Positions 1,541 through 21,901 of a DNA stretch of 22,048 nucleotides are shown in pieces (the stretch's first letter is position 1; each line of letters begins with the position of its first letter). Source of the stretch: a virus (taxonomy: Duplodnaviria > Heunggongvirae > Uroviricota > Caudoviricetes); IMG/VR virus record IMGVR_UViG_3300030444_000103, positions 1 to 22,048 of that record; one strand, given 5' to 3'. The position numbers and the translations under genes were made by a program. The notes below the pieces were generated by a model, which was not told the origin of the DNA, did not search any database, and saw only the letters and a list, made by a program, of their open reading frames with translations.

Positions 1541-1553
1541 AGAGGGGGATTTG

Positions 1554-4662: not shown

Positions 4663-4946
4663 GCGAGATTAATTATCAGGAAGGGCATGAAACGGCGGGG
4701 CAAGCAAAACCAGTGACATGGCGATATCGCTACGTGAAAAAAGGCGTTACGGACTTTCAGGGGAAGTAGTGGTCTGGTGACTGGAAATATGTACCGAAAA
4801 AAGAGGATTGTAACGACAGGCCGAACTATCAAATTCAGGCCTTATTCACTGCCTCACCAGTCCCGGTTACATCAGAAGAATTGGTTAAAGCTGTGCACTT
4901 TTATGAACAACTAAAACGCGAAAATCCACCAACATCCGGCAACTAG
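4659..4946 (+). pseudogene. Short ORF with an in-frame TAG at 4767-4769
   Basis: Hand translation: MSEINYQEGHETAGQAKPVTWRYRYVKKGVTDFQGK, stop, then a 58-codon open stretch WSGDWKYVPKKEDCNDRPNYQIQALFTASPVPVTSEELVKAVHFYEQLKRENPPTSGN. Confidence 0.3.
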
Positions 4947-5200
4947 ATTAATGGGTTAACTATGTCGGTTAAACGACCAGCCAACTGAAAAAGCGGAAAC
5001 CTGATTACAGGTTGCCAGATAAGGCAATGAGCTACCTGGCGCGGAACGGACTGATAAGTATGGGGAATGTTTTACGATGAACCTTTAGACTAAAGAGTTT
5101 GTAACGCTATGTAAGTGATTTTTTCTGGTTTAGATATTTATATGTCCGGCCAAATTGAGGTGTGTTTAAATGTAATTGCACATTGATTGTAGGAGGAATA

Positions 5201-5380
5201 ATGAAAAACGCATTGCAGTTTTTGTTTGTTGCGTTCTGGTTGTTCGCATCATGTATGCCCATCATCTTCACAGCAAGGTATATGGAAAAAGTTGATGTTT
5301 TGATATTAATATTTGGATATATAAATGCCCTTTTTTTAGGGGTGTTCATGGCGGTCATGTGCATTGAATACTGGCGGTAA
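5201..5380 (+). CDS. Small hydrophobic (two-helix) membrane protein, 59 aa
   Basis: Strong SD AGGAGG 5 nt before ATG 5201 (inside track ORF 5162..5380); MKNALQFLFVAFWLFASCMPIIFTARYMEKVDVLILIFGYINALFLGVFMAVMCIEYWR; sits in an AT-rich island. Confidence 0.45.
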   Translation: MKNALQFLFVAFWLFASCMPIIFTARYMEKVDVLILIFGYINALFLGVFMAVMCIEYWR

Positions 5381-5559
5381 ATACAGCGAATTCCATTGGT
5401 TTAGTTGGATATTTACTGTGCTGGACAAAAACGGTTTGCGGGGAAATCTTAGTTAAGTAGAATGACTGCGGGTGCTTGAGGCTATCTGCCTCGGGCACGA
5501 ACACCAACGGCAGGTAGAGAAAAGCCCCAGTTAACATTACGCGTCCTGCAAGACGCTTA

Positions 5560-5640
5560 ACATTAATCTGAGGCCAATTTCATGCCAGACACATGTAGGT
5601 TAGCCTCTTACGTGCCGAAAGGCAAGGAGAAGCAGGCTAT
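5560..5640 (+). pseudogene. hok/gef-family 5' region remnant, cut at the start codon
   Basis: GCCTCTTACGTGCCGAAAGGCAAGGAGAAGCAGGCTAT matches the recalled hokC-type leader and SD and resembles the intact hokD start at 8941-8958; the coding sequence is absent after the start-codon position. Confidence 0.4.
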
Positions 5641-7127: not shown

Positions 7128-7492
7128 TTTTCGGGTGGTTTGTTACTTGTTTTACCGGGGATATGCCAGAAACGCGCTGAGTCAGTCTGGGCGGTGCGCG
7201 TAATGAGGCGTTATGGTAAATAGCCTATGCTAATGTCCGCTAAGAGCAAGAAGCGGAAGTTGGCAGTTTTGTGGACTGTCCCCACAAAAGTGACTACAGA
7301 AATAGTTGCAATTCATAATTGATCATGGGTTGTCAGTTAAACTCGTGGCGATTTAAATAGACTAATTGGGAGTGCGTCCATTACTTATATCTTGTAATGT
7401 TAACTATCAGAAATGATACAAAGATAATATGTCTTTAAAGAAAAGGCTGATGGCGAAAAGTGGCCCGATGAGGGCCACAATACGGCTGTCAC

Positions 7493-7825
7493 TTAGACGT
7501 AAATATCAATGGTGCCAGCGGTATTTGTATCGTCTTTTTTCTCTTCTTTTTTATCAGGCTGAACTGTCGCGTCTTTATTCTTTTTCTCTGCCTGCTGCCT
7601 TAACAACTGCTCCAGTTGAGCCCTGAGGCTTTCAATTTGCTTCTGTACCAATGCAGCCATTTCTTTTTTCTGCTGTGTCGTCATCCCCTCTTCCGATGAG
7701 ATTTTCCCAAGCTTTTCAGTCAGCACCTGAATTTGTCTTGTGATTTTGGCTATTTCTGATGTTCCTTCCGGGGCGGAGTTGTTTGAAATAACGGTTGAGG
7801 TATTTCCCTGAATTGTGACAGACAT
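7493..7825 (-). CDS. flxA: FlxA-like protein (110 aa)
   Basis: 110-aa coiled-coil-like ORF matching the recalled size and context of Qin flxA; preceded by a sigma-28 promoter match. Confidence 0.65.
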   Translation of the reverse strand: MSVTIQGNTSTVISNNSAPEGTSEIAKITRQIQVLTEKLGKISSEEGMTTQQKKEMAALVQKQIESLRAQLEQLLRQQAEKKNKDATVQPDKKEEKKDDTNTAGTIDIYV

Positions 7826-7848
7826 AGATTTCTCCTTTTAAAAAAGCA

Positions 7849-7875
7849 CTATCGGCATGCACAAAAAAATCTTTA
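7849..7875 (-). promoter_or_regulatory. Sigma-28 (FliA) promoter for flxA
   Basis: Minus strand reads TAAAGATT-N11-GCCGATAG against consensus TAAAGTTT-N11-GCCGATAA, about 25 nt upstream of the start codon. Confidence 0.6.
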
Positions 7876-8320
7876 ATCGTATTTCTTGTGTCATTAATTG
7901 TTTGATGTTCAGATTGTTTTCCTCGCGGGCTGGCGCGCCTCAGAAAGTAAAGCTTGTTGACAGGGGTAAACGTTCGGCAATAATTTTCTGCCGCATGCGG
8001 GTGTTGCATAAAACGTGCTACGTTCCTTTATCGACAGGTCAGGTCACCGCTCACCCGCCGACGAGAAAGCAACACTGACATGCTAAAGCAAAAAATAGAT
8101 GAATAAGTTGAGTTGTGCATATGTAGCCTGACCGTCACAAAGTATATGGTGTCTGTACCAGTAAGATGATGGCCGGACTCTTTAAAAACGAGCTGACCTG
8201 CACAATACAGGATGGACTTAGCAATGGCTGCTCCTGGCACAAAGCGGACAGTGATCACCGTTCTTACGACTACTTTCTGACTTCCTTCGTGACTTGCCCT
8301 AAGCATGTTGTAGTGCGATA

Positions 8321-8346
8321 CTTGTAATGACATTTGTAATTACAAG
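8321..8346 (+). promoter_or_regulatory. relBE operator-like palindrome (relO)
   Basis: CTTGTAATGACATTTGTAATTACAAG just upstream of relB; matches the known pattern of TTGTAAT/ATTACAA repeats. Confidence 0.5.
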
Positions 8347-8357
8347 AGGTGTAAGAC

Positions 8358-8597
8358 ATGGGTAGCATTAACCTGCGTATTGACGATGAACTTAAAGCGC
8401 GTTCTTACGCCGCGCTTGAAAAAATGGGTGTAACTCCTTCTGAAGCGCTTCGTCTCATGCTCGAGTATATCGCTGACAATGAACGCTTGCCGTTCAAACA
8501 GACACTCCTGAGTGATGAAGATGCTGAACTTGTGGAGATAGTGAAAGAACGGCTTCGTAATCCTAAGCCAGTACGTGTGACGCTGGATGAACTCTGA
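8358..8597 (+). CDS. relB: RelB antitoxin
   Basis: 79 aa, MGSINLRIDDELKARSYAALEKMGVTPSEALRLMLEYIADNERLPF...; stop overlaps the relE ATG (TGATG). Confidence 0.85.
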   Translation: MGSINLRIDDELKARSYAALEKMGVTPSEALRLMLEYIADNERLPFKQTLLSDEDAELVEIVKERLRNPKPVRVTLDEL

Positions 8598-8884
8598 TGG
8601 CGTATTTTCTGGATTTTGACGAGCGGGCACTAAAGGAATGGCGAAAGCTGGGCTCGACGGTACGTGAACAGTTGAAAAAGAAGCTGGTTGAAGTACTTGA
8701 GTCACCCCGGATTGAAGCAAACAAGCTCCGTGGTATGCCTGATTGTTACAAGATTAAGCTCCGGTCTTCAGGCTATCGCCTTGTATACCAGGTTATAGAC
8801 GAGAAAGTTGTCGTTTTCGTGATTTCTGTTGGGAAAAGAGAACGCTCGGAAGTATATAGCGAGGCGGTCAAACGCATTCTCTGA
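8597..8884 (+). CDS. relE: RelE mRNA-interferase toxin
   Basis: 95 aa, MAYFLDFDERALKEWRKLGSTVREQLKKKLVEVLESPRIEANKLRGMPDCYKIKLRSSGYRLVYQVIDEKVVVFVISVGKRERSEVY... Confidence 0.85.
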   Translation: MAYFLDFDERALKEWRKLGSTVREQLKKKLVEVLESPRIEANKLRGMPDCYKIKLRSSGYRLVYQVIDEKVVVFVISVGKRERSEVYSEAVKRIL

Positions 8885-8955
8885 ACCAAAGCATGACATC
8901 TCTGTTTCGCACCGAAGGTGACACTTCTGCTTTGCGTTGACAGGAGAAGCAGGCT

Positions 8956-9111
8956 ATGAAGCAGCAAAAGGCGATGTTAATCGCCCTGATCGTCATCTGT
9001 TTAACCGTCATAGTGACGGCACTGGTAACGAGGAAAGACCTCTGCGAGGTACGAATCCGAACCGGCCAGACGGAGGTCGCTGTCTTCACAGCTTACGAAC
9101 CTGAGGAGTAA
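8956..9111 (+). CDS. hokD: HokD (RelF) type I toxin, 51 aa
   Basis: Hand translation: MKQQKAMLIALIVICLTVIVTALVTRKDLCEVRIRTGQTEVAVFTAYEPEE; below the ORF-track cutoff. Confidence 0.85.
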   Translation: MKQQKAMLIALIVICLTVIVTALVTRKDLCEVRIRTGQTEVAVFTAYEPEE

Positions 9112-9178
9112 GAGACCCGGCGGGGGAGAAATCCCTCGCCACCTCTGATGTGGCAGGCATCCTCAACGCACCCGCACT

Positions 9179-9207
9179 TAACCCGCTTCGGCGGGTTTTT
9201 GTTTTTA
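9179..9207 (+). terminator. Rho-independent terminator after hokD
   Basis: ACCCGCTTCGGCGGGT hairpin followed by a T-run. Confidence 0.6.
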
Positions 9208-9327
9208 TTTTCAACGCGTTTGAAGTTCTGGACGGTGCCGGAATAGAATCAAAAATACTTAAGTAGCGCGCAGGGATAAGAGGGATGGTCCCTTAAAGGG
9301 GAGAGCTAATTATCCGGAAGGATTCTG

Positions 9328-9579
9328 ATGATGAACATCGAAGAACTGCGTAAAATTTTTTGTGAAGATGGCCTCTATGCTGTGTGCGTTGAAAATGGAA
9401 ATCTTGTTAGTCATTACCGCATTATGTGTTTGCGAAAGAATGGGGCTGCGTTAATTAATTTTGTGGATGCTCGGGTCACGGACGGATTTATCTTGCGCGA
9501 AGGTGAGTTTGTCACTTCATTACAGGCATTGAAAGAGATCGGAATAAAAGCTGGCTTTTCTGCTTTTTCAGGAGAATAA
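9328..9579 (+). CDS. Rem-like small prophage protein (83 aa)
   Basis: ORF with GGAAGGA SD; size and position after hokD match Qin rem; the rem sequence itself is not recalled. Confidence 0.5.
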   Translation: MMNIEELRKIFCEDGLYAVCVENGNLVSHYRIMCLRKNGAALINFVDARVTDGFILREGEFVTSLQALKEIGIKAGFSAFSGE

Positions 9580-9645
9580 ACTCATCTACAATCTTGCGCG
9601 GGGCTGAACTCCCGCTGAGTAACACCGTGCCACCGGAGAAAACCG

Positions 9646-9924
9646 ATGGCACGCAACGCAAAATATTACAATTCTGATAATTCGCCCGTTCTTGCCTGCA
9701 CGCACGGGCGGTATTCTCACGCATTCAAGTCTGAATGGTTCCAGCACCCTCCATGCACTGCAGAACAGGCCGAATGGCTGATTCATTCTTACCGCAGGCG
9801 CGGGTTCGAGGTTAAGAAAGCTCTCAGTCTCGACTATCGGCACTGGATAATCTCTGTCAGGCTGCCTTATTCCGAACGCCCACCACGTGCGTCCCGCACT
9901 TTCCAGCAACGGATCTGGAGGTAA
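9646..9924 (+). CDS. Hypothetical protein (92 aa), translationally coupled to the next gene
   Basis: GGAGAAAACCG before the ATG; TAA at 9922-9924 is followed 1 nt later by the GTG start of the downstream gene. Confidence 0.4.
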   Translation: MARNAKYYNSDNSPVLACTHGRYSHAFKSEWFQHPPCTAEQAEWLIHSYRRRGFEVKKALSLDYRHWIISVRLPYSERPPRASRTFQQRIWR

Positions 9925-9925
9925 C

Positions 9926-10975
9926 GTGCGGGTATTACTTAGACCTGTTCTGGTGCCTGAGCTTGGGCTGGTGGTCCTTAAGCCGGGCCGTGAATCCATA
10001 CAGATATTTCATAATCCTCGAGTGCTGGTGGAACCGGAACCAAAAAGCATGCGTAATCTGCCATCCGGAGTCGTTCCTGCCGTTCGCCAGCCGCTGGCGG
10101 AAGACAAAACATTGCTGCCGTTTTTTAGTAACGAACGGGTGATTCGTGCTGCTGGCGGCGTTGGCGCATTGTCCGACTGGCTATTACGTCATGTTACATC
10201 CTGCCAGTGGCCTAATGGCGATTACCATCACACTGAAACAGTCATTCACCGTTATGGTACCGGCGCAATGGTGTTGTGCTGGCACTGCGACAACCAACTG
10301 CGTGACCAGACATCGGAATCACTGGAGCTGCTTGCTCAACAAAATCTGACAGCATGGGTGATTGACGTCATCCGTCACGCAATAAGCGGTACGCAGGAGC
10401 GGGAATTATCTTTGGCTGAATTATCCTGGTGGGCGGTCTGCAATCAGGTGGTGGATGCACTACCTGAGGCTGTATCGCGTCGTTCGCTGGGATTACCAGC
10501 GGAAAAAATCTGCTCGGTGTACCGCGAAAGCGACATCGTACCGGGAGAGCAGACCGCCACCAGCATATTGAAACAACGCACAAAAAATCTTGCACCGTTG
10601 CCTTACGCCCACCAGCAACAAAAATCACCACAGGAAAAGACGGTGGTAAGCATCACCGTTGATCCAGAGTCTCCGGAATCTTTCATGAAGCTGCCTAAAC
10701 GTCGCCGCTGGGTTAAGGAGAAATACACACGTTGGGTTAAGACACAGCCGTGTGCTTGCTGCGGTATGCCAGCCGACGATCCGCATCATCTGATTGGTCA
10801 CGGGCAGGGCGGAATGGGAACAAAAGCACATGATCTCTTTGTGTTGCCTTTGTGCAGAAAGCATCACAACGAGCTGCATACGGATACAGTGGCATTTGAA
10901 GATAAGTATGGCTCCCAACTGGAGCTGATATTTCGTTTTATCGATCGCGCGCTGGCAATTGGCGTACTGGCGTAA
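9926..10975 (+). CDS. YdfU-like DUF968 protein with a C-terminal Cys/His (HNH-like) motif, 349 aa
   Basis: Track ORF 9887..10975; GTG at 9926 after GGAGGT; C-terminus ...QPCACCGMPADDPHHLIGHGQGGMGTKAHDLFVLPLCRKHHNELH... Confidence 0.6.
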   Translation: MRVLLRPVLVPELGLVVLKPGRESIQIFHNPRVLVEPEPKSMRNLPSGVVPAVRQPLAEDKTLLPFFSNERVIRAAGGVGALSDWLLRHVTSCQWPNGDYHHTETVIHRYGTGAMVLCWHCDNQLRDQTSESLELLAQQNLTAWVIDVIRHAISGTQERELSLAELSWWAVCNQVVDALPEAVSRRSLGLPAEKICSVYRESDIVPGEQTATSILKQRTKNLAPLPYAHQQQKSPQEKTVVSITVDPESPESFMKLPKRRRWVKEKYTRWVKTQPCACCGMPADDPHHLIGHGQGGMGTKAHDLFVLPLCRKHHNELHTDTVAFEDKYGSQLELIFRFIDRALAIGVLA

Positions 10976-10988
10976 GTGGAGAACGAGC

Positions 10989-11741
10989 ATGAACCTTGAA
11001 GCCTTACCAAAATATTACTCCCCAAAATCTCCAAAATTGAGCGATGACGCTCCAGCGACAGGCACCGGTTGTTTAACAATTACGGATGTAATGGCAGCGC
11101 AGGGGATGGTGCAGTCGAAAGCACCACTTGGGTTGGCCTTATTTCTGGCAAAAGTTGGTGTTCAGGACCCTCAGTTTGCGATTGAAGGCCTGCTAAATTA
11201 CGCGATGGCACTGGATAACCCGACATTGAACAAATTGAGTGAAGAAATCCGGTTACAGATTATTCCTTACCTCGTGAGTTTTGCCTTTGCTGATTACTCC
11301 AGGTCTGCGGCAAGTAAGGCTCGCTGTGAGCATTGTTCAGGTACGGGATTTTATAATGTATTGCGCGAAGTGGTGAAACACTACAGACGCGGGGAATCTG
11401 TAATCAAGGAAGAATGGGTGAAGGAACTATGTCAGCATTGCCATGGTAAGGGCGAAGCCAGCACAGCGTGCAGAGGGTGTAAGGGTAAAGGGATTGTTCT
11501 GGATGAAAAAAGAACCCGGTTTCATGGCGTACCGGTATATAAGATTTGTGGGCGTTGTAATGGAAACCGGTTTAGTCGTTTACCGACCACGCTGGCACGA
11601 CGTCATGTCCAGAAGCTGGTACCAGACCTGACCGATTATCAGTGGTATAAGGGGTATGCGGACGTCATTGGTAAACTGGTAACAAAGTGCTGGCAGGAAG
11701 AAGCATACGCGGAAGCGCAATTGAGGAAGGTGACGAGATAA
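10989..11741 (+). CDS. Late-gene antiterminator Q (phage 82 / QuuQ-like), 250 aa
   Basis: Track ORF 10959..11741 with ATG 10989 after GGAG; several CxxC pairs; size and sequence match the recalled Qin QuuQ. Confidence 0.8.
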   Translation: MNLEALPKYYSPKSPKLSDDAPATGTGCLTITDVMAAQGMVQSKAPLGLALFLAKVGVQDPQFAIEGLLNYAMALDNPTLNKLSEEIRLQIIPYLVSFAFADYSRSAASKARCEHCSGTGFYNVLREVVKHYRRGESVIKEEWVKELCQHCHGKGEASTACRGCKGKGIVLDEKRTRFHGVPVYKICGRCNGNRFSRLPTTLARRHVQKLVPDLTDYQWYKGYADVIGKLVTKCWQEEAYAEAQLRKVTR

Positions 11742-11772
11742 ATGATTTTTGCTGAAGATGGCGACATGATGT

Positions 11773-11801
11773 TTGCATTTTTCAAAAAATATGGATAAAA
11801 T
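11773..11801 (+). promoter_or_regulatory. pR'-like late promoter
   Basis: TTGCAT-N17-TAAAAT immediately downstream of Q. Confidence 0.55.
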
Positions 11802-11846
11802 TTTTTCAACGATGGGCTTTGTATACCCGACGTTAAGAAAAAGTAG

Positions 11847-11872
11847 AAAACCCGCTGATGAGCGGGTTTTGT
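11847..11872 (+). terminator. tR'-like intrinsic terminator
   Basis: AAAACCCGCT-GATG-AGCGGGTTTT hairpin about 45 nt downstream of the promoter -10. Confidence 0.6.
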
Positions 11873-12162
11873 GCTTTAAATGGGGCAATGGTAATGTTGA
11901 ATCTCATCCCGGGACTCATGTCTGTTAACTTATTATTTAGCTGGTGACTTGGTTATTTGCCTGATGTTTAAAATGTTTTCTTCCAGTACAATGTCCCTAA
12001 ACACAATGAGTCTGCTTATTATATTATTAGCAGAGCTATTACGGCCAAAGTACAGCATAAGCTTTTAAAGCCAATCAACCAGTCATCAAGACAGACGGGG
12101 TTATTCATAAAAACTCTCCATGTGTGATCCGATGGGGCCTGAAATTAAAGCTTTAATATAGC

Positions 12163-12375
12163 TCATGAAAGGTAAACATTGGCAGCTGAAGGGCCACGCA
12201 GACCATTTATCCGGCAAAATTCCACGCGTAATCCGGTGGTAATTTCTTCTGCATCGCGGAGATTGAGCGCTGAGACATGAAGCTGGACATCGATACGACC
12301 ATCGGATGGGGTGATAAGACCCTTGCCGCTTTTGCCGTCAAAGGTTTTGACAATTCCTGTCATTTTACGGGACAA
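12163..12375 (-). CDS. cspF: Cold-shock-domain protein, CspF/CspH-like
   Basis: 70 aa, [26 protein letters not shown]...[16 protein letters not shown]. Confidence 0.8.
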
Positions 12376-12675
12376 AAAAATTCCTTAATACTGATAACTT
12401 GGCGCACTATACACACGTTCCTGAAGAAAGCTATAGTTTTTTGATGGGGTTGAAGATGGCTGGATGTCTAAAATAAACATTGCTTCATATGTTCAACTAT
12501 GCGTTAATGATTGCGTCGGTTTGAAGAACAGACGATATACGAAGTAGTTTACTAAAGCAGTTCTCATTTCAGGTGTTATTCACTTATTCCTTCTTTGAGT
12601 CTCTCCAATTAAGTACGAAGTCGTTTCTGTTATGCAAACCATTTATGCCGAAAGGCTCAAGTTAAGGAATGTAGA

Positions 12676-12891
12676 ATGTCAAATAAAATGACTGGTTTAG
12701 TAAAATGGTTTAACGCTGATAAAGGTTTCGGCTTTATTTCTCCTGTTGATGGTAGTAAAGATGTGTTTGTGCATTTTTCTGCGATTCAGAATGATAATTA
12801 TCGAACCTTATTTGAAGGTCAAAAGGTTACCTTCTCTATAGAGAGTGGTGCTAAAGGTCCTGCAGCAGCAAATGTCATCATTACTGATTAA
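12676..12891 (+). CDS. cspB: Cold-shock protein, CspB-like
   Basis: 71 aa, [38 protein letters not shown]...; divergent from the cspF-like gene. Confidence 0.85.
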
Positions 12892-13173
12892 AATTCATCG
12901 CTCGTCTGTATACGATAACGAAGAAGGCTGATGCCTGAGTAGAGATACGGACAGAGTAGTGAATATTGGATCTCTTTAATAAAAAGTAAGGAGGTCCAAT
13001 ACATGAAACAATGGCTAGCATATTTGGCAAAATCTTAATCAGGAAAAGTATGCTAACCATTGTGGTGAAGTGCAGGTTTGCTGCATGAATAGTTTTACAG
13101 CAGAAGCTAACTGCTGGCATGGCAAAACAAAGTGCGTAAGTGGATGACTCCCACAAAAAGCACCACAATCTCA

Positions 13174-13197
13174 AACCCGCTCAGGCGGGTTTTTTAT
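13174..13197 (+). terminator. Intrinsic terminator
   Basis: AACCCGCTCAGGCGGGTT hairpin followed by TTTTTT. Confidence 0.55.
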
Positions 13198-13254
13198 TAT
13201 CTGCTTTAAATATATTATTAAAATATAAAAAATACTTGTTACTAATAAAATCAA

Positions 13255-13425
13255 TCAGGCTACAGCTTTAAGATTTGTCTGGAATACTTTGTTGCAATGA
13301 GGGCAGATCAAAAGGGCACCTTTTTGTACTCTTGAAAAACTGTGTTCTGACTCTTGGGTGCAGTTTGGGCAGGAACATTTAACGAGATAATTACGGCGTG
13401 ATTTTGAGTTTTTACGTTCTGACAT
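13255..13425 (-). CDS. Small zinc-ribbon protein (56 aa)
   Basis: Internal ATG of track ORF 13255..13476 with AGGAAA SD; MSERKNSKSRRNYLVKCSCPNCTQ...ICPHCNKVF carries paired Cys motifs. Confidence 0.4.
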   Translation of the reverse strand: MSERKNSKSRRNYLVKCSCPNCTQESEHSFSRVQKGALLICPHCNKVFQTNLKAVA

Positions 13426-13644
13426 AGGCTTTTCCTGTATAAATGGCCGTATACAGTACACTAAATATGAAAACATTTCTCGTATTATTATTTTATATAT
13501 GACTTTCTTTCAAAATAATTACCCACATTTTTAATGTGTATGTTTTTTTAGCGCCGTTGAGAACAACGTGTGCTGTCAAAACTACCCCGTAGACTCCGAT
13601 CTTTTCAAACATATTGCACCATCCGTGTACATCGGGGTGAGGAT

Positions 13645-13860
13645 ATGAAATCAATGGATAAGTTAACAACAGGTGTTGCCTATGGCACATCGGCGGGTAA
13701 TGCTGGTTTCTGGGCATTGCAGTTACTCGATAAAGTAACTCCGTCACAGTGGGCTGCAATCGGTGTGCTGGGTAGCCTGGTTTTTGGCCTGCTGACGTAT
13801 CTGACAAATCTTTATTTCAAGATTAAAGAAGACAGGCGTAAGGCTGCGAGAGGAGAGTAA
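13645..13860 (+). CDS. Pinholin (phage 21 S-like), 71 aa, dual-start motif
   Basis: [71 protein letters not shown] after GGGGTGAGG; close to recalled S21. Confidence 0.8.
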
Positions 13861-13864
13861 TCCA

Positions 13865-14172
13865 ATGACTCAAGACTATGAACTGGTTGTGAAAGGAGTC
13901 CGTAATTTTGAGAATAAAGTTACGGTAACTGTAGCCTTACAGGACAAAGAACGCTTTGACGGTGAAATTTTTGACCTGGATGTCGCCATGGACCGTGTTG
14001 AAGGAGCTGCGCTGGAGTTTTATGAGGCAGCAGCCAGAAGGAGCGTCCGGCAAGTCTTCCTGGAAGTAGCAGAAAAATTGTCAGAAAAAGTTGAGTCTTA
14101 TCTGCAGCATCAGTACTCCTTTAAGATTGAAAATCCTGCCAATAAGCACGAGCGTCCTCATCATAAATATAT

Positions 14173-14176
<4 letters not shown>
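13865..14176 (+). CDS. YdfR-like hypothetical protein (103 aa) between holin and endolysin
   Basis: 103-aa ORF; its stop overlaps the endolysin ATG (ATGA); same size and position as ydfR in Qin. Confidence 0.55.
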
Positions 14177-15200
<1,024 letters not shown>

Positions 15201-15563
15201 GGTAATATTAAATCGGAACATTTACATCGCGGAATGTAAAATTTAAATAAAAAGGACTCTTCCATGAGCCAAAATTCCTGAAATCTTAAGGGTAAGATAA
15301 AAGGTCTTAATCAGAATGACACGTTATTATTAATAAATAAAGCTATTCTTTCATTGCTGTGTTTTTCTTTACAAAAGTAATCCTTGCTATGGGTGGTTAA
15401 TCATGCGTTAATGGTGTTCTGGTTTGTTACAAATTTATCTGAAGCAGTCATTGTTATAATTTTATTATTTGTACCTCTTGAGATTTCCTTGTTGGTTTTT
15501 CTCTCTGATATTTTTTTTCGGACCATTCTGCCCAAGGGCTAATTTCTTCAAAAGGTAATAATT

Positions 15564-15776
15564 ATGTCTAACAAAATGACTGGTTTAGTGAAATGGTTTA
15601 ACCCTGAAAAAGGTTTTGGTTTCATCACGCCGAAAGATGGCAGCAAAGATGTGTTTGTCCATTTCTCAGCAATTCAGAGCAACGATTTCAAAACATTAAC
15701 TGAGAATCAGGAAGTTGAATTTGGTATTGAGAACGGACCTAAAGGTCCTGCCGCTGTTCATGTAGTGGCGCTTTGA
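15564..15776 (+). CDS. cspI: Cold-shock protein, CspI-like
   Basis: 70 aa, [45 protein letters not shown]...; long AT-rich 5' leader. Confidence 0.8.
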
Positions 15777-15981
15777 GGTAGACAATATTACAAACCATAT
15801 TCACTTTAGATGCCCGTGTTGTCATGGTTCCCAGTATAGAACATCATCTTTTGATGTTTCTGACATGAATCCTTTCGGGGCAAAATGTATCTTTTGTAAA
15901 TCAATGATGATTACATTTGATAATATTTCACAATACTTAAATGCCAGCCGTCTGTCGTTGGATTTAAAAAAGTGAAAATGA

Positions 15982-16003
15982 AGGCTCCTTCGGGAGCTTT
16001 TTT
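15982..16003 (+). terminator. Intrinsic terminator
   Basis: AGGCTCC-TTCG-GGAGCTT hairpin followed by TTTTTT. Confidence 0.5.
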
Positions 16004-16047
16004 GCTTGGTATCTATTCGATGGATACTCACATACTACGGTAACATC

Positions 16048-16278
16048 ATGAAAAAAATCATAGTTTTTTTTAACTCTGAACCTGCAGTGGTAGTGCCAGC
16101 GATGACTGGAGTTAACACCATCATGCGTGAATATCCAAATGGCGAAAAAACACACCTTACTGTAATGGCCGCAGGGTTTCCATCTCTGACCGGAGATCAT
16201 AAAGTCATTTATGTAGCCGCGGATCGACATGTTACTTCAGAAGAAATTCTGGAAGCAGCAATAAGGCTCTTGAGTTGA
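16048..16278 (+). CDS. Hypothetical protein (76 aa)
   Basis: ATG inside track ORF 16006..16278; weak RBS. Confidence 0.35.
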   Translation: MKKIIVFFNSEPAVVVPAMTGVNTIMREYPNGEKTHLTVMAAGFPSLTGDHKVIYVAADRHVTSEEILEAAIRLLS

Positions 16279-16449
16279 TTTGATGCTATTGTATTGATAA
16301 TTCAGGAAAATTTTCTTTGTCTGTTTGTGTAAAATTTAGACTATCGTATGTTGATTATTGCGATGTTTCATCTTATCTTTTACACGTTTGCACCATATAA
16401 TCGACTTACTGTGTAACTGGAAAGTCATAACAGACTAAAAGAGGAAATG

Positions 16450-16623
16450 ATGAATATTGAAAACTTAAAAACAAAAGCAGAAGCAGATATTTCTGAATAT
16501 ATAACAAAAAAAATTATTGAACTTAAGAAAAAGACCGGGAAAGAAGTTACCAGTATTCAGTTTACCGCACGGGAAAAAATGACGGGTCTTGAAAGCTATG
16601 ATGTCAAGATTAATTTAATCTGA
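16450..16623 (+). CDS. gnsB: GnsA/GnsB-family protein (57 aa)
   Basis: Hand translation MNIENLKTKAEADISEYITKKIIELKKKTGKEVTSIQFTAREKMTGLESYDVKINLI, close to recalled GnsB; below the ORF-track cutoff. Confidence 0.75.
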   Translation: MNIENLKTKAEADISEYITKKIIELKKKTGKEVTSIQFTAREKMTGLESYDVKINLI

Positions 16624-16774
16624 TGTATTCAATAATAAAATTTATCCATAAACCTCGTTTTTACGGGGTTTTGTTATATTTGAATGGTTCCGAATATCTA
16701 AATCACAATTGTTGATGGTTTTTATTAAACCAATGCAGTCCGGCTCAGGAGTGAGAGAAGCCGGACGTTATGGT

Positions 16775-17185
16775 TTAGCGTGGTAAGATCTGTGTAGTTT
16801 TCTGGATGCTTTCAGTAAATAGTAATGAATTATCAAAGGTATAGTAATATCTTTTTTGTTCGTGGATATTTGTAACCCACCGAAAAACTCCTGCTTTAGC
16901 AAGGTTTCTTCTGTATTCCTGAAATGTGATCTCTCTGGATTTCAGCTTATTAGAGGTCGTTTCTATAAGATGCCTATCCTTTGAAAATTTGACAGACACA
17001 ATGTTTTTTAGGCCCTTTAATAACACTGTATTATCATTTTTTAATACAATATGAACATTCTCTGTGGCTAAATAGTAAATGTAATGTGAGACATTGTGAC
17101 GTTTTAGCTCAGAATAAAACCATTGATAGTTTAAATCGTTTCGAACTTTATCAAATATTTGTTTAAAAATGACTACCTGATCCAT
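16775..17185 (-). CDS. YdfO/YbcV-like DUF1398 prophage protein
   Basis: Track ORF 16775..17200; internal ATG at 17185 with GGAAGG SD gives 136 aa. Confidence 0.6.
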
Positions 17186-17242
17186 AGATAAACCTTCCAT
17201 GTGATATGAGGGGGCGTAGTCTGCACGATTATCTAAATTGCT

Positions 17243-17476
17243 TCAATCTGGTCTGACCTGTTTTCTGAGCAATTCAGTAATGTCACTCTTTTCTTTGTTT
17301 GCTTCAGAAGAAACTCTTTTTTCTGAGCACAGTCTCCGGCGGCAGGCTTCAATGACCCAGGCTGAGAAATTCCCGGACCCTTTTTGCTCAAGAGCGATGT
17401 TAATTTGTTCAATCATTTGGTTAGGAAAGCGGATGTTGCGGGTTGTTGTTCTGCGGGTTCTGTTCTTCGTTGACAT
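17243..17476 (-). CDS. Ribbon-helix-helix (Arc/MetJ-like) DNA-binding protein, 77 aa, possibly YnfO-like
   Basis: Basic N-terminus followed by NIRFPNQMIEQINIALEQKG, the RHH pattern. Confidence 0.5.
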   Translation of the reverse strand: MSTKNRTRRTTTRNIRFPNQMIEQINIALEQKGSGNFSAWVIEACRRRLCSEKRVSSEANKEKSDITELLRKQVRPD

Positions 17477-17584
17477 GAGGTTGTCCCGTATTCAGTGTCG
17501 CTGATTTGTATTGTCTGAAGTTGTTTTTACGTTAAGTTGATGCAGATCAATTAATACGATATCTGCGTCGGTAATGACTCCAAC

Positions 17585-18088
17585 TTATTGATAGTGTTTT
17601 ATGTTCAGATAATGCCCGATGACTTTGTCATGCAGCTCCACCGATTTTGAGAACGACAGCGACTTCCGTCCCAGCCGTGCCAGGTGCTGCCTCAGATTCA
17701 GGTTATGCCGCTCAATTCGCTGCGTATATCGCTTGCTGATTACGTGCAGCTTTCCCTTCAGGCGGGATTCATACAGTGGCCAGCCATCCGTCATCCATAT
17801 CACCACGTCAAAGGGTGACAGCAGGCTCATAAGACGCCCCAGCGTCGCCATAGTGCGTTCACCGAATACGTGCGCAACAACCGTCTTCCGGAGCCTGTCA
17901 TACGCGTAAAACAGCCAGCGCTGGCGCGATTTAGCCCCGACGTATCCCCACTGTTCGTCCATTTCCGCGCAGACGATGACGTCACTGCCCGGCTGTATGC
18001 GCGAGGTTACCGACTGCGGCCTGAGTTTTTTAAATGGCGGAAAATCGTGTTGAGGCCAACGCCCATAATGCGGGCGGTTGCCCGGCAT
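17585..18088 (-). CDS. insB: IS1 InsB (the -1 frameshift partner that makes InsAB')
   Basis: 167-aa ORF overlapping insA in the -1 frame, the standard IS1 arrangement. Confidence 0.85.
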
Positions 18089-18282
18089 CCAACGCCATTC
18101 ATGGCCATATCAATGATTTTCTGGTGCGTACCGGGTTGAGAAGCGGTGTAAGTGAACTGCAGTTGCCATGTTTTACGGCAGTGAGAGCAGAGATAGCGCT
18201 GATGTCCGGCGGTGCTTTTGCCGTTACGCACCACCCCGTCAGTAGCTGAACAGGAGGGACAGCTGATAGAAACAGAAGCCAC
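18007..18282 (-). CDS. insA: IS1 InsA
   Basis: [91 protein letters not shown]. Confidence 0.9.
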
Positions 18283-18450
18283 TGGAGCACCTCAAAAACA
18301 CCATCATACACTAAATCAGTAAGTTGGCAGCATCACCTAGTTTATGTATCGATCGACACATGGTTTTGCATTAGTGAGACACGACTGATGTACACAAAGC
18401 TTTGTACTGGATTGCAAGGCTTTGTGCTCTTCGATAGTGGTTAAGGCGGA

Positions 18451-19608
18451 TTACTCCACCTTCCCATCAAGCCAGTCCGCCCACCACTGCATCATTTCTC
18501 TGCGCTTATCGAGATACTGAGCATGGTTGTAAATCCCACGCACAGATCCGCCGTTGGCGTGTGCCAGTTGCACTTCAATAGCGTCAGCAGGCCATTCGTG
18601 CTCGTTCATAATCGTGCTGAATTCATGCCTGAATCCGTGACCGCTTTCCAGACCCTCATAGCCGATTTGTTTGATCACAAGCAATACCGCGTTCTCGCAG
18701 ATTGGCTTCTTCTTATCGTTGCGCCCGGCAAAAACAAACTCTGATACTGGTTTGGTGATTGAGCTTAGCGTAGTGAGAAGCTCAACCACCTGGTCCGACA
18801 TCGGTACTACATGAATCTTGCGGCCCTTCATCACACTGGCGTCGATGGTGATAATCCTGTTTTCAAAATCGACGTTCTTCCATAGCATGGAACGAAGCTC
18901 TTTTGTTCTTAGGGCTGTGTAGCGTAAAACTTTGGTCGCAATGAGCGATACGATACTTCCTGAAAATGTTGCCAGTGCTTTGTTGAATGCAGGGATCTGG
19001 TCTGCAGGAAGAAACGGGAAGTTCTTCTTGCGGTATCCTTTCATGGCGTCTGCAAGGTCAGGTGCCGGGTTATATTTAGCCCTTCCGGTGACAATAGCGT
19101 AACGGAAAACCTCTCCGCATCTTCTGCGGGCTTTGTTGGCTCGCTCCATTGCACCGCGATCTTCGAATCTGCGGATTACTTCCAGCAGTTGCATCGGCTC
19201 AATATCCTGAATCTCAAGGCCGCCGATGATGGGTAAAATGTCGTCGTCAAACATTTTGGCAAGTTCGTTTGCATAGCCTACTGACCAGACTTGCTTCTTG
19301 TGCTCGTACCATTCCTTGTAAATCGCACTAAATGAATTGTTGTTAGACGAAGCCTTTTTCGCCTTTACCGGATCGATGCCAACCGAGATGTCTTTCCTCG
19401 CGGTCCATGCTTTATCCCTTGCTTCCTGCAAAGTCATAAGCGGATATTTTCCGACGGTCAGGATTTTCTCCTTACCGTCAATCTTGTAGCGAAGCTGCCA
19501 TACCTTTTTCCCGGATACAGGGACATAAAGGTACAGGCCATTACCATCGAGAAGGCGGTATGGTTTTTCTTTCGGCTTTGCTGCTTCAATCTGCTTAACG
19601 GTGAGCAT
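18451..19608 (-). CDS. intS: P4-family tyrosine integrase, IntS-like (385 aa)
   Basis: Track ORF 18451..19644; ATG at 19608 gives MLTVKQIEAAKPKEKPYRLLDGNGLYLYVPVSGKKVWQLRYKIDGKEK..., matching recalled IntS; lies next to tRNA-Arg. Confidence 0.9.
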   Translation of the reverse strand: MLTVKQIEAAKPKEKPYRLLDGNGLYLYVPVSGKKVWQLRYKIDGKEKILTVGKYPLMTLQEARDKAWTARKDISVGIDPVKAKKASSNNNSFSAIYKEWYEHKKQVWSVGYANELAKMFDDDILPIIGGLEIQDIEPMQLLEVIRRFEDRGAMERANKARRRCGEVFRYAIVTGRAKYNPAPDLADAMKGYRKKNFPFLPADQIPAFNKALATFSGSIVSLIATKVLRYTALRTKELRSMLWKNVDFENRIITIDASVMKGRKIHVVPMSDQVVELLTTLSSITKPVSEFVFAGRNDKKKPICENAVLLVIKQIGYEGLESGHGFRHEFSTIMNEHEWPADAIEVQLAHANGGSVRGIYNHAQYLDKRREMMQWWADWLDGKVE

Positions 19609-19769
19609 GGGTAAAAATCCGGTGGGTAAAATTATTTTATCCACTTTTTACCCGTCATGGAGTGCGGCTGTCAACGATCTGAAGCGAACCATGACGAACT
19701 GTGAATCTACGGAAGGCTTGATATTCAGGGGATTTTGCGGACTGGTACGGATGGGAGCGAACTGATAAA

Positions 19770-19844
19770 TGGTGTCCCCTGCAGGAATCGAACCTGCAAT
19801 TAGCCCTTAGGAGGGGCTCGTTATATCCATTTAACTAAGAGGAC
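19770..19844 (-). tRNA. argW: tRNA-Arg (anticodon CCU)
   Basis: Reverse complement GTCCTCTTAGTTAAATGGATATAACGAGCCCCTCCTAAGGGCTAATTGCAGGTTCGATTCCTGCAGGGGACACCA folds as a cloverleaf with anticodon CCT and an encoded CCA. Confidence 0.9.
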
Positions 19845-19919: not shown

Positions 19920-20852
19920 TTATGCCGGGTTTTTATAATTTTTCTTAATGTTTTCCGCACGTTCTGCTTTTTGGCGTGCTTCTGCTTTACGCTTATTGCT
20001 CATGTCGTTACGAATCTGTGCATGACTCATTAACGCGAAGATAAAGGTGCCGCCGCAGATGTTCCCCGCTAAAGTAGGTAGTGCGAAGGGCCAGATGAAA
20101 TCGCTCCAGTGCAGCGTACCGTTAAACACCAGATAGAGGATTTCAACAGAACCGACCACGATATGGGTGGTGTCACCCAGGGCAATAAGCCAGGTCATCA
20201 ATATAATCACCACAATCTTTGCCGCACCCGCTGCAGGAAACATCCAAACCATAGTGGCGATCAGCCAGCCGGAAATGATCGCGTTGGCAAACATCTCGCT
20301 GGGGGTGTTCTTCATCACATCCATGCCGATTTTGACAAATGCATCGCGAGTTTCTTCATTGAAGATAGGCATATATTCAAATGCCCACGCCGCAATACCT
20401 GTCCCGAGAATATTACCCAGCAGCACGACGCCCCATAACCGTATAAGTAAGCCGACGTTGCTCATTGTCGGTTTTTGCATGACGGGTAGTACCGCAGTCA
20501 CGGTATTTTCGGTAAATAATTGCTGGCGGGCCATAATGACGATAATAAAACCAAAGGTATAACCGAGATTCTCCAGCAAGAAGCTGCCCGGCACACCTTC
20601 CAGTTCGACATGAAATATCCCTTTTGCCAGTAACGAAGCGCCCATCGACAGACCCGCCGCAATGGCTGACCACAGTAGCGCCATTGCGTCGCGTTCCAGC
20701 TCTTTTTCACCATCCTGGCGGATATGCTCATGAATTGCCATCGCCCGGGAGGGGAGTCGGTCTTCATCTATTTCTATTTTTTTGCCGCGCTCTTTTTCTT
20801 CGCTCTCAACTTCAATTTCGTCGCTGTGTTGATCAATTTTGTCGTTGTCCAT
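19920..20852 (-). CDS. yfdC: Inner-membrane protein YfdC (formate/nitrite-transporter-like)
   Basis: 310-aa polytopic membrane protein in the conserved position between argW and mlaA. Confidence 0.85.
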   Translation of the reverse strand: MDNDKIDQHSDEIEVESEEKERGKKIEIDEDRLPSRAMAIHEHIRQDGEKELERDAMALLWSAIAAGLSMGASLLAKGIFHVELEGVPGSFLLENLGYTFGFIIVIMARQQLFTENTVTAVLPVMQKPTMSNVGLLIRLWGVVLLGNILGTGIAAWAFEYMPIFNEETRDAFVKIGMDVMKNTPSEMFANAIISGWLIATMVWMFPAAGAAKIVVIILMTWLIALGDTTHIVVGSVEILYLVFNGTLHWSDFIWPFALPTLAGNICGGTFIFALMSHAQIRNDMSNKRKAEARQKAERAENIKKNYKNPA

Positions 20853-21145
20853 GGTCTCTTCTCTTGAATTAGCACGTATAGCTAAAGCGTAGCGGCTTTT
20901 TTGCTCGCAACTGACGGGAGTTACTCTGAAAATGTAGAAAAGGCTGCGTTTGCCTTTTTCTGTTTCTATAGAATCAAGTAGCCTACAGGGCGGCGATTAC
21001 CAGGCTATGATCAAATCAGCAAATCAGGGCGTCTGGACATCAGTTGACGTGCTGTTACAATCGCCCACACCTAAACAGGCGGATACGGTATCGTTCCGTC
21101 ATGGATGGCAAACTGCATAAGCCATAAAAAAACAGGGAGACATTT

Positions 21146-21901
21146 ATGAAGCTTCGCCTGTCGGCGCTTGCTCTGGGAACTACGCTTCTGGTGGGGTGTG
21201 CGAGTTCCGGTACAGATCAGCAAGGGCGTTCTGACCCGTTAGAAGGGTTCAACCGCACCATGTACAACTTCAACTTCAATGTATTAGACCCGTATATTGT
21301 TCGACCGGTCGCTGTCGCCTGGCGTGATTATGTTCCGCAACCGGCGCGTAACGGTTTGAGCAACTTTACCGGCAACCTTGAAGAACCTGCGGTGATGGTT
21401 AACTACTTCTTGCAGGGCGACCCTTATCAGGGGATGGTCCACTTTACCCGCTTTTTCCTGAACACCATTTTGGGGATGGGCGGCTTTATTGATGTTGCAG
21501 GGATGGCGAACCCGAAACTGCAACGGACTGAACCTCACCGCTTCGGTAGTACGCTTGGTCATTATGGCGTGGGTTATGGGCCGTACGTTCAGTTACCATT
21601 CTACGGTAGCTTCACGCTGCGTGATGACGGTGGTGATATGGCGGATGGTCTTTACCCGGTTCTTTCCTGGTTGACCTGGCCGATGTCTGTGGGTAAATGG
21701 ACGCTTGAAGGGATCGAAACCCGCGCTCAGCTGCTGGATTCCGACGGTCTGCTGCGTCAGTCGTCCGATCCTTATATTATGGTGCGCGAAGCGTACTTCC
21801 AGCGTCATGATTTCATCGCTAATGGCGGCGAACTCAAACCGCAGGAAAATCCGAACGCGCAAGCGATTCAGGATGATTTAAAAGATATCGATTCTGAATA
21901 A
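21146..21901 (+). CDS. mlaA: MlaA (VacJ) outer-membrane lipoprotein
   Basis: 251 aa; signal peptide with lipobox LLVGC; sequence matches recalled VacJ/MlaA. Confidence 0.9.
   Translation: MKLRLSALALGTTLLVGCASSGTDQQGRSDPLEGFNRTMYNFNFNVLDPYIVRPVAVAWRDYVPQPARNGLSNFTGNLEEPAVMVNYFLQGDPYQGMVHFTRFFLNTILGMGGFIDVAGMANPKLQRTEPHRFGSTLGHYGVGYGPYVQLPFYGSFTLRDDGGDMADGLYPVLSWLTWPMSVGKWTLEGIETRAQLLDSDGLLRQSSDPYIMVREAYFQRHDFIANGGELKPQENPNAQAIQDDLKDIDSE

What the first reader, a model, noticed from the sequence alone, without database searches (positions are those of the whole stretch)
17243..19844. IS1 without a target-site duplication marks a deletion junction between the late region and the integrase
The IS1 copy is intact (768 bp, both terminal repeats, insA/insB) but its flanking 9-mers differ. 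IS1 normally makes an 8-9 bp duplication, so a flank mismatch indicates an IS1-mediated deletion or recombination between two copies. In this position one would expect terminase, head and tail genes between the lysis/accessory genes and int-att; none are present. That makes this a cryptic prophage remnant that still keeps int, immunity, replication, Q and lysis genes.
Basis: partly seen in the sequence, partly recalled or inferred. Interest (0 to 1): 0.5.

Follow-up and report, generated by a model that had tools for sequence, protein, structure and literature searches.

The report
IS1 joining two unrelated prophages
An intact IS1 insertion sequence without a target duplication joins part of a Qin-type lambda-like prophage to the integrase of a different, Sf6/P22-like prophage at the argW tRNA gene; this is an ordinary IS-mediated join, or an assembly join, and not a deletion inside one prophage.

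Summary
IS1 lies at 17570-18337: 768 bp, 23-nt terminal repeats, intact insA and insB. Its flanking 9-mers differ (ATCTGCGTC / TAGTTTATG).

- Left flank (1-17569): the immunity-to-lysis half of a Qin-type lambda-like siphovirus. Its own int/xis lie at the other end, next to rspB. It differs by 4 SNPs and 1 indel from E. coli G47-1, and its first 13.2 kb are 100% identical to a metagenome contig anchored at rspB.
- Right flank (18338-22048): intS, argW, yfdC and mlaA. It is 100% identical to an isolate in which intS is followed by an O-antigen acyltransferase and P22-like tailspike and ejection genes.

In G47-1 the two loci lie 867 kb apart in the same orientation. The junction therefore joins the start of that segment to its end. 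Neither one deletion nor one inversion can produce this.

My split of the possible causes:
- about 45%: the assembly entered one simple IS1 insertion and left through another. The source looks like a metagenome contig.
- about 20%: an IS1-mediated fusion of a circular Qin-type phage genome next to intS.
- about 15%: a large tandem duplication or a multi-step rearrangement.

Low interest; these are known phenomena.

The parts
1..17569 (+). Immunity-to-lysis half of a Qin-type lambda-like (cos, siphovirus) prophage. Gene order: ydfC/B/A, dicA-like repressor 1066-1473(-), cro 1554-1781, ydaT 1765-2286, O-like 2267-3232, pseudogene stretch, flxA, relBE 8358-8884, hokD 8956-9111, ydfU, Q (ydfT) 10989-11741, cspF/cspB, holin 13645-13860, ydfR, lysozyme 14173-14706, Rz-like 14703-15200, cspI, gnsB, ydfO, ynfO.
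   Evidence: 99.97% identical (4 SNPs, 1 indel) to G47-1 L001 16001-33570, annotated as above. 99.2% identical to phage PhiR42_1. Positions 1-13232 are 100% identical to metagenome contig L017, which continues upstream into exo, xis, int, rspB, rspA and ynfA.
17243..17476 (-). ynfO (YlcI/YnfO family, DUF3950), the last gene before cos in Qin-type and lambda-like phages.
   Evidence: Pfam DUF3950, E = 2.7e-21. Annotated as ynfO in G47-1.
17477..17569 (.). Non-coding stretch on the cos side of ynfO. In uninterrupted relatives about 390 bp of spacer and then nohA/Nu1 terminase follow.
   Evidence: Alignment with G47-1, which continues ATAATTGATT... and then nohA.
17570..18337 (-). Intact IS1. The insB-proximal end is at 17570-17592 and the insA-proximal end at 18315-18337. 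insB is 17585-18088, insA is 18007-18282, and the frameshift motif is at 18025-18034. There is no target-site duplication.
   Evidence: It is 98.7-99.1% identical to IS1 copies in three E. coli genomes.
18338..18450 (.). 113-bp spacer downstream of intS. It is the near end of the intS-acyltransferase spacer of an Sf6/P22-like argW prophage and contains an imperfect palindrome at 18380-18439.
   Evidence: Identical to L006 11159-11271. In L005-L008, L010, L012 and L014 a 641-aa acyltransferase and a P22-like tailspike follow.
18451..19608 (-). intS, a 385-aa tyrosine integrase of the Sf6/CUS-3/HK620 type.
   Evidence: Pfam Arm-DNA-bind_3, Phage_int_M and Phage_integrase. 99.5% amino-acid identity to CUS-3, N7 and phiv205-1, 98.7% to Sf6, 98.2% to HK620. 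The exact protein is found in many E. coli draft genomes at argW.
19770..19844 (-). argW, tRNA-Arg(CCT), at the attL end of the argW prophage.
   Evidence: ARAGORN, Rfam tRNA. No second copy of its 3' end is present in the window.
19920..21901 (.). Host genes yfdC (19920-20852, minus strand) and mlaA (21146-21901, plus strand).
   Evidence: Positions 19845-22048 are 100% identical to G47-1 and to isolates L006, L008 and L014. Annotation.

Best explanation
The IS1 bridges DNA from two different prophages that sit at two different chromosomal loci of a G47-1-like E. coli. One is the cos-proximal end of the early/lysis half of a Qin-type lambda-like prophage at its native rspB site. The other is the intS-acyltransferase spacer of an Sf6/P22-like prophage at argW. 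I think the most likely history is this. Each site carries its own simple IS1 insertion in the same orientation, each with its own 9-bp duplication (ATCTGCGTC in Qin, TAGTTTATG beside intS). The sequence in the window then enters the Qin copy and leaves through the argW copy, because the assembler collapsed the 768-bp repeat. On this reading nothing was deleted in the cell. The terminase, head and tail genes of the Qin-type prophage, and the rest of the P22-like prophage, lie elsewhere in the same genome. What is shown: the identity and breakpoints of both flanks, their different origins, and the geometry. What is inferred: that the source is a short-read metagenome contig, and that the join was made in silico rather than in vivo. 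The higher-level conclusion, two prophages and two loci rather than one prophage with an internal deletion, holds at about 0.85-0.9 whichever way the join arose.
For: Left flank: it is a Qin-type prophage with its own int/xis next to rspB. Window 1-13232 is 100% identical to L017, which runs on into exo, xis, int, rspB, rspA and ynfA. That upstream part is 99.92% identical to G47-1.

Right flank: it is 100% identical over 3,711 bp to L006, where a P22-like podovirus prophage follows intS. IntS is of the Sf6/CUS-3/HK620 type.

Geometry: in G47-1, ynfO is at 2.221 Mb and argW at 3.088 Mb. Both window halves read in the descending direction of that chromosome. The junction therefore joins the start of the 867-kb segment to its end. 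That is the path expected if an assembler mis-pairs the flanks of two direct IS1 copies. A deletion or a single inversion cannot give it.

Source: the rare T99M variant of the O-like protein occurs only in 3 contigs, from JGI/IMG and ENA metagenomes. The longest is 78,416 nt, and none is from NCBI genomes. The two ENA MEGAHIT contigs would end at window-equivalent 17,686 (k119) and 17,694 (k127), that is k-2 nt past position 17569. This is the signature of a multi-copy repeat starting exactly at 17570 (arithmetic).

Precedent and absence: a simple IS1 insertion with a 9-bp duplication exists at the homologous nucleotide of DLP12 in Ec-RL2-1X. Neither junction, nor the adjacency, occurs in 5,426 complete E. 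coli genomes or in the other collections.
Against: Assemblers normally break at IS copies rather than bridging them. If the source was assembled from long reads or from an isolate, the join would be real. I could not retrieve the source record, its reads, or the third (78-kb) contig. A simple IS1 insertion in the intS-acyltransferase spacer has not been seen in any other genome. The window carries no internal sign of chimerism: both halves fit the same G47-1-like backbone.
Confidence: 0.45

Rival explanations
1. The junction is real and was made in one step, by IS1-mediated fusion of a circular Qin-type phage genome with the chromosome. A Qin-type phage circle (excised or infecting) that already carried IS1 between ynfO and cos fused with the chromosome in the intS-acyltransferase spacer. 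The fusion went either by IS1 replicative transposition (cointegrate formation) or by RecA recombination with a resident IS1 there. The whole phage genome would then lie between two direct IS1 copies inside the Sf6-like prophage: acyltransferase-IS1-nohA...tail-attP-int-xis...ynfO-IS1-intS.
For: It gives exactly the observed 'circle-type' junction with a donor flank on one side and a target flank on the other (geometry). The IS1 at this Qin site appears to be a lineage trait, since two independent metagenome contigs end k-2 nt into it. Close relatives are complete phages, for example PhiR42_1, deposited as a phage genome with int, xis, cos-type terminase, head and tail genes. Cointegrate formation by IS1 is established knowledge. 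The target 9-mer TAGTTTATG is AT-rich, as IS1 prefers.
Against: There is no direct evidence. The partner junctions were not found in IMG/VR. The 100%-identical contig L017 shows the prophage at its native rspB site, so a second copy or a relocation must be assumed. No precedent was found among 5,426 complete genomes.
Confidence: 0.2
2. The junction is real and comes from chromosome-scale rearrangement between two IS1 copies. Either unequal crossing-over made a tandem duplication of the ~0.87-Mb rspB-to-argW segment, whose novel joint is intS-IS1-ynfO, or two or more successive inversions occurred on a chromosome that is not colinear with G47-1 and K-12.
For: The junction geometry is that of a duplication joint. 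IS-flanked duplications and inversions are well known in E. coli (established knowledge). Both flanks fit one backbone lineage.
Against: Duplications of this size are unstable and rarely fixed. Inversions confined to one replichore are counter-selected, and at least two would be needed. No related complete genome shows either junction.
Confidence: 0.15
3. A single lambdoid prophage integrated at argW by IntS had a Qin-like early/lysis region. It lost its terminase, head and tail genes through an IS1-mediated adjacent deletion, or through recombination between two IS1 copies inside the prophage.
For: IntS-type prophages do have the layout cro-Q-lysis-virion genes-(conversion gene)-int-argW, so the order in the window is architecturally possible. 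IntS modules occur with several virion types, including a myovirus-like one in L009 and an Stx phage, VT2phi_272. Real IS1-associated internal deletions exist in Qin-type prophages, for example in CEA106S.
Against: The left 17.5 kb is almost identical to prophages that carry their own int/xis and sit at rspB. The 113-bp spacer next to IS1 is of the acyltransferase/P22-like type. Phage records of this IntS type, 611R6 and phiv205-1, share nothing with window 1-17569 at megablast level. No genome shows a Qin-type early region at argW. No argW att core lies in the window's left part.
Confidence: 0.1

Closest known systems
Qin cryptic prophage of E. coli K-12 and its complete relatives (G47-1 prophage, phage PhiR42_1)
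   Same: Same genes in the same order: dicA/dicC-like immunity, flxA, relBE, hokD, rem, ydfU, Q (ydfT), cspF/cspB, holin, ydfR, rrrQ, rzpQ, cspI, gnsB, ydfO, ynfO. The window is 99.97% identical to G47-1 and 99.2% to PhiR42_1.
   Different: The window copy stops at IS1, 93 bp past ynfO, where relatives continue with nohA/terminase and about 25 kb of lambda-like head and tail genes. Its own int/xis lie outside the window.
Sf6 / HK620 / CUS-3 (P22-like, Lederbergvirus) prophages at argW; CPS-53/KplE1 of K-12
   Same: The arrangement argW-attL-intS with intS transcribed away from the tRNA. IntS is 98-99.5% identical. The spacer after intS is identical to isolates that carry an O-antigen acyltransferase and a P22-like tailspike.
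   Different: Only intS and 113 bp of the spacer remain here. Everything from the acyltransferase gene onward is replaced by IS1 and Qin-type DNA.
IS1 simple insertion (for example in DLP12 of E. coli Ec-RL2-1X)
   Same: Same element, same orientation, and the same nucleotide position in the homologous ylcI/ynfO-cos spacer.
   Different: The DLP12 copy has a 9-bp duplication (ACCTGCGTC) and is followed by the terminase gene. The window copy has no duplication and is followed by intS.
IS1-mediated adjacent deletions, cointegrates and IS-IS recombination joints; repeat-induced chimeric contigs
   Same: An IS copy whose two flanks come from different places and that lacks a target duplication is the classical footprint of all of these (established knowledge). 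CEA106S shows a real IS1-associated deletion in a Qin-type prophage.
   Different: Here the flanks are 867 kb apart and co-oriented in the nearest reference genome, which excludes a plain adjacent deletion or a single inversion. The window alone cannot tell the remaining mechanisms apart.

Membership tests
IS1 insertion sequence | Length of about 768 bp with about 23-bp imperfect terminal inverted repeats (GGTGATGCTGCCAACTTACTGAT / GGTAATGACTCCAACTTATTGAT) | tested here: met
   17570-18337 = 768 bp; repeat arms at 17570-17592 and 18315-18337.
IS1 insertion sequence | insA and insB' reading frames with an A6C frameshift motif | tested here: met
   InsA 91 aa (Zn_ribbon_InsA and HTH_Tnp_IS1) and InsB 167 aa (DDE_Tnp_IS1, full model). 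The motif is at 18025-18034.
IS1 insertion sequence | An 8-9 bp direct target duplication, expected after simple insertion | tested here: not met
   ATCTGCGTC against TAGTTTATG. This does not affect membership of IS1. It shows that the present flanks are not those of one simple insertion.
Qin-type lambda-like prophage (left flank) | Gene content and order colinear with Qin and its complete relatives, ending at ynfO-cos | tested here: met
   99.97% identity over 17,569 bp to G47-1; annotation.
Qin-type lambda-like prophage (left flank) | Located at the rspB site with its own integrase and excisionase | tested here: inconclusive
   This holds for G47-1, 2023CK-01509 and the 100%-identical metagenome contig L017. 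The window itself starts downstream of dicB, so its own left end is not visible.
Sf6/P22-like (IntS-type) prophage at argW (right flank) | IntS-type tyrosine integrase next to an intact tRNA-Arg(CCT) and transcribed away from it | tested here: met
   The same arrangement is seen in L003-L014.
Sf6/P22-like (IntS-type) prophage at argW (right flank) | P22-like virion genes (tailspike, ejection proteins) and a conversion gene next to intS | tested here: not met
   These are absent from the window. They are present in isolates with the identical intS and spacer (L005-L008, L010, L012, L014). Only a remnant of this prophage is seen here.
   The left flank maps to the Qin-type prophage at rspB and the right flank to the Sf6-like prophage at argW, 867 kb apart in G47-1.
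IS1 cointegrate / IS-IS recombination joint | A partner IS1 copy carrying the complementary flanks (acyltransferase|IS1|nohA) on the same molecule | not testable with these tools
   The source genome and its reads are not available. Partner-junction scans of IMG/VR found nothing.
Repeat-induced chimeric contig | Reads support ynfO|IS1|nohA and acyltransferase|IS1|intS, and no read or read pair links ynfO to intS | not testable with these tools
   No reads are available. Indirect support comes from the metagenomic origin of the rare T99M allele and from two MEGAHIT contigs that end k-2 nt into the IS1.

The most novel reading that the evidence does not exclude
The junction is real and records an integrase-independent way of lodging a phage genome in the chromosome. 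A circular, IS1-carrying Qin-type phage genome fused through IS1, by cointegrate formation or IS1-IS1 recombination, into the intS-acyltransferase spacer of a resident Sf6-like prophage at argW. The result would be a nested double prophage bounded by two IS1 copies.
Probability: 0.18. Interest if true: 0.35.

Novelty: already known. Interest (0 to 1): 0.12.

Why it matters
The main value is as a correction. The integrase beside argW is not the integrase of the prophage whose immunity, replication, Q and lysis genes fill the window, so annotating this stretch as one 'cryptic argW prophage' would be wrong. It also illustrates a general caution: an IS copy without a target duplication marks a join, not necessarily a deletion. 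In metagenome contigs the join may have been made by the assembler. If the join is real, it would be one more example of IS1 reshuffling prophage DNA in E. coli. Such reshuffling is well known.

Tried and rejected
1. Exact-pattern scans for the right junction found nothing in GTDB species genomes, IMG/VR or JGI metagenomes.
2. The same scans for the left junction also found nothing.
3. Scans of IMG/VR for the two partner junctions, IS1|TSD|nohA side and acyltransferase side|TSD|IS1, found nothing.
4. BLAST of both junctions against 5,426 complete E. coli genomes gave no contiguous match to the right junction. The only contiguous match to the left junction was the homologous DLP12 site in Ec-RL2-1X.
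5. Genomes that seemed to match 1-18337 (H31-H35) carry IS1 elsewhere; the one inspected, 2023CK-01509, has it in ydfO, and none gave a contiguous left-junction match. The IS1 remnant beside intS in CFSAN061770 and the IS1 in SCZE5 are also at other positions.
6. A look-up of the 397-aa GTG-start version of IntS found nothing on record.
7. A look-up of the 33-aa InsB tail, meant to recover the ends of the MEGAHIT contigs, returned only unrelated IS1 copies.
8. The third contig carrying the rare T99M allele (JGI/IMG, 78,416 nt, possibly the source) could not be displayed, because the tool merged it with L017.
9. A paper search for the origin of PhiR42_1 gave nothing useful.
10. I rejected Shigella as the source. 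The left 17.5 kb has no extra IS elements and is nearly identical to E. coli G47-1.
11. I rejected a simple deletion and a single inversion on geometric grounds.
Full report
**1. The observation**

Window 17570-18337 is a complete IS1.
- It is 768 bp long, with 23-nt imperfect terminal repeats at 17570-17592 and 18315-18337.
- insA (18007-18282, minus strand) and insB (17585-18088, minus strand) are open. They match the three IS1 Pfam families over their full lengths.
- The TTTAAAAAAC frameshift motif is at 18025-18034.
- The 9 bases outside the ends are ATCTGCGTC on the left and TAGTTTATG on the right. No direct repeat of 8 nt or more brackets the element.
- tRNA-Arg(CCT) lies at 19770-19844 on the minus strand.
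- The integrase is best read as 18451-19608 (385 aa, ATG start). The 397-aa GTG version is not on record anywhere.

**2. The left flank**

Window 1-17569 matches many complete E. coli chromosomes at 99.4-100% identity, and the match always ends at 17569. In strain G47-1 there are 4 SNPs and one 1-nt indel.

The G47-1 region is annotated as the Qin gene set: ydfC/B/A, a dicA-like repressor, cro, ydaT, an O-like protein, DUF977, pseudogenes, flxA, relBE, hokD, rem, ydfU, the antiterminator ydfT, cspF/cspB, holin, ydfR, rrrQ, rzpQ, cspI, gnsB, ydfO and ynfO. After ynfO come nohA, the large terminase subunit, the portal gene, and lambda-like head and tail genes.

At the other end of this prophage lie dicB, ydfD, an exonuclease, an excisionase and an integrase, directly next to rspB. 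Strain 2023CK-01509 has the same layout. So does the deposited phage genome PhiR42_1, which is 99.2% identical and carries int and xis at one end and Nu1 through Tfa after ynfO.

The left flank is therefore the early/lysis half of a cos-type lambda-like siphovirus that has its own integration module elsewhere. IS1 begins 93 bp past ynfO, where G47-1 continues ATAATTGATT.

**3. The right flank**

The exact IntS protein is found in many E. coli draft genomes, always next to argW, yfdC and mlaA. In most of these, intS is followed by a 641-aa acyltransferase, a tailspike with a P22 head-binding domain, Mnt/Arc, and P22 gp16, gp20 and gp7 homologues.

Window 18338-22048 is 100% identical (3,711 of 3,711 bases) to one of these drafts, L006 (GCA_009394485.1). 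The 113-bp stretch between the intS stop and IS1 is the start of the intS-acyltransferase spacer. L006 continues ATGGTAAACTT where the window has IS1.

IntS is 99.5% identical to the integrases of CUS-3, N7 and phiv205-1, 98.7% to that of Sf6, and 98.2% to that of HK620. The right flank is thus the attL end of an Sf6/P22-like podovirus prophage. That is a different virus type from the left flank.

**4. Are the two flanks one prophage?**

I found no evidence that they are.
- Phage records of the IntS type, 611R6 and phiv205-1, share only the int-argW-yfdC stretch with the window.
- No complete genome has Qin-type DNA next to argW, with or without IS1.
- The left part of the window contains no copy of the argW att core.
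- The O-like protein of the window (2267-3232) carries a rare change, T99M. It occurs in only three contigs of a 15-billion-protein collection, all from JGI/IMG or ENA metagenomes.
- One of these, ENA ERZ27262710 k119_83180 (L017), is 100% identical to window 1-13232. It continues upstream for 7.7 kb through dicB, exo, xis and int into rspB, rspA and ynfA. That upstream part is 99.92% identical to G47-1.

In this lineage the Qin-type prophage therefore sits at its native site.

**5. Geometry**

G47-1 shares the window's Qin part and its yfdC-mlaA flank, the latter 100% identical over 2,204 bp. In G47-1, ynfO lies at 2.221 Mb and argW at 3.088 Mb. Both window halves correspond to the descending direction of that chromosome.

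Call the Qin side of nohA segment A, the 867-kb interval from ynfO to intS segment B, and everything from the acyltransferase gene onward segment C.
- A deletion between two IS1 copies would give A-IS1-C (nohA|IS1|acyltransferase).
- An inversion would give nohA|IS1|intS and ynfO|IS1|acyltransferase.
- The window shows ynfO|IS1|intS, which is the start of B joined to the end of B.

That joint arises in only four ways:
- in a tandem duplication;
- in an excised or inserted circle;
- after several successive rearrangements;
- when an assembler pairs the left flank of one IS1 copy with the right flank of another.

**6. Is the left junction real?**

The second ENA contig (L018, k127_90677, 99.86% identical) ends at 17,694. 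These are 117 and 125 nt into IS1, which is k-2 for k = 119 and k = 127.

This is what a de Bruijn assembler does when a multi-copy repeat begins exactly at 17570. It suggests that IS1 at this Qin site is a trait of the lineage and is multi-copy in those samples. It remains an inference, because I could not read the contig ends (one search failed to recover them).

A simple IS1 insertion exists at the homologous nucleotide in the DLP12 prophage of Ec-RL2-1X, in the same orientation and with a clean 9-bp duplication ACCTGCGTC. It shows what an undisturbed insertion at this site looks like.

**7. Most likely explanation**

The allele data point to a metagenome contig as the source. The only T99M contig long enough to hold the window is a 78,416-nt JGI/IMG contig, and none of the searchable collections returned either junction.

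For a short-read metagenome contig that runs through a 768-bp multi-copy repeat and shows a joint no single deletion or inversion could make, I judge a repeat-collapsed assembly join to be the single most likely cause (about 0.45). On that reading the cell carries two ordinary IS1 insertions and both prophages may be largely intact.

The best real alternative is fusion of a circular, IS1-bearing Qin-type phage genome with the chromosome next to intS, by IS1 cointegrate formation or IS1-IS1 recombination (about 0.2). It explains the circle-type joint in one step. Related phages are complete.

A large tandem duplication or a multi-step rearrangement gets about 0.15. The window alone cannot separate these. 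Reads or long-range data would.

**8. Comparison with what is known, and novelty**

Every component is known:
- IS1;
- Qin-type prophages;
- IntS/argW prophages of the Sf6/HK620/CUS-3/KplE1 type;
- IS copies without target duplications as footprints of recombination, cointegration or deletion;
- chimeric contigs at repeats.

In strain CEA106S, an IS1 48 bp further from ynfO is joined to a truncated major capsid gene. Nothing here lies outside known kinds, so interest is low. The useful result is the correction that the int in this window does not belong to the prophage that fills it.

Noticed in passing
L015 9131-9898 (E. coli Ec-RL2-1X, DLP12); homologous to window 17570: IS1 is inserted at the identical nucleotide and in the same orientation in the ylcI-cos spacer of a different prophage (DLP12), with a clean 9-bp duplication ACCTGCGTC. 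This points to an IS1 hot spot or to gene conversion between homologous prophage segments. K-12 derivatives (ER2796, ER3413, evolved MG1655 lines) also carry an IS1 between ylcI and nohD at another position.
   Followed up: partly
L016 4179-6259 (E. coli CEA106S): An IS1, itself split by an IS3, lies 48 bp further from ynfO and is joined to a 5'-truncated major capsid gene. This is a genuine IS1-associated internal deletion of terminase-to-capsid genes in a Qin-type prophage.
   Followed up: partly
window 2267-3232 (SNP at 2562): The O-like replication protein carries a rare T99M substitution. It is known only from three metagenome contigs (JGI/IMG and ENA; longest 78,416 nt) and works as a lineage marker for the source strain.
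   Followed up: yes
window 3700-7100: This stretch is rich in pseudogenes and is shared with G47-1: a frameshifted SAM methyltransferase, a DUF7167 gene with an internal stop, and a partial ISEsa1/ISNCY-type transposase (5715-7056). It also holds an Rfam sok antitoxin RNA match at 5470-5641 with no intact hok gene beside it.
   Followed up: no
window 8358-9111, 12515-12907, 15418-15803: The Qin-type segment carries cargo genes: relBE, hokD, and three cold-shock genes. Two of these have full-length Rfam cspA thermoregulator 5' leaders.
   Followed up: no
window 18380-18439: An imperfect 25-nt-arm palindrome (72% complementary, 10-nt loop) lies just downstream of intS and is conserved in L005, L006 and SCZE5. 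It may be the intS terminator or a protein-binding site. The simple terminator scan did not flag it.
   Followed up: no
L029 27691-39579 (E. coli G47-1 argW locus): In the closest complete genome, argW is occupied by a different element: a 428-aa integrase, an IS3, a rolling-circle replication protein, and the defence genes gapS6a/gapS6b. argW is thus a busy integration site in this lineage.
   Followed up: no
L009 11650-21158 and L013 11308-14040: The identical IntS is linked to quite different neighbours in other isolates: a short acyltransferase with myovirus-type baseplate and tail-fibre genes (L009), or gtrA/gtrB/gtr-type glucosyltransferase genes (L013). The int module is exchanged among phage types.
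   Followed up: no
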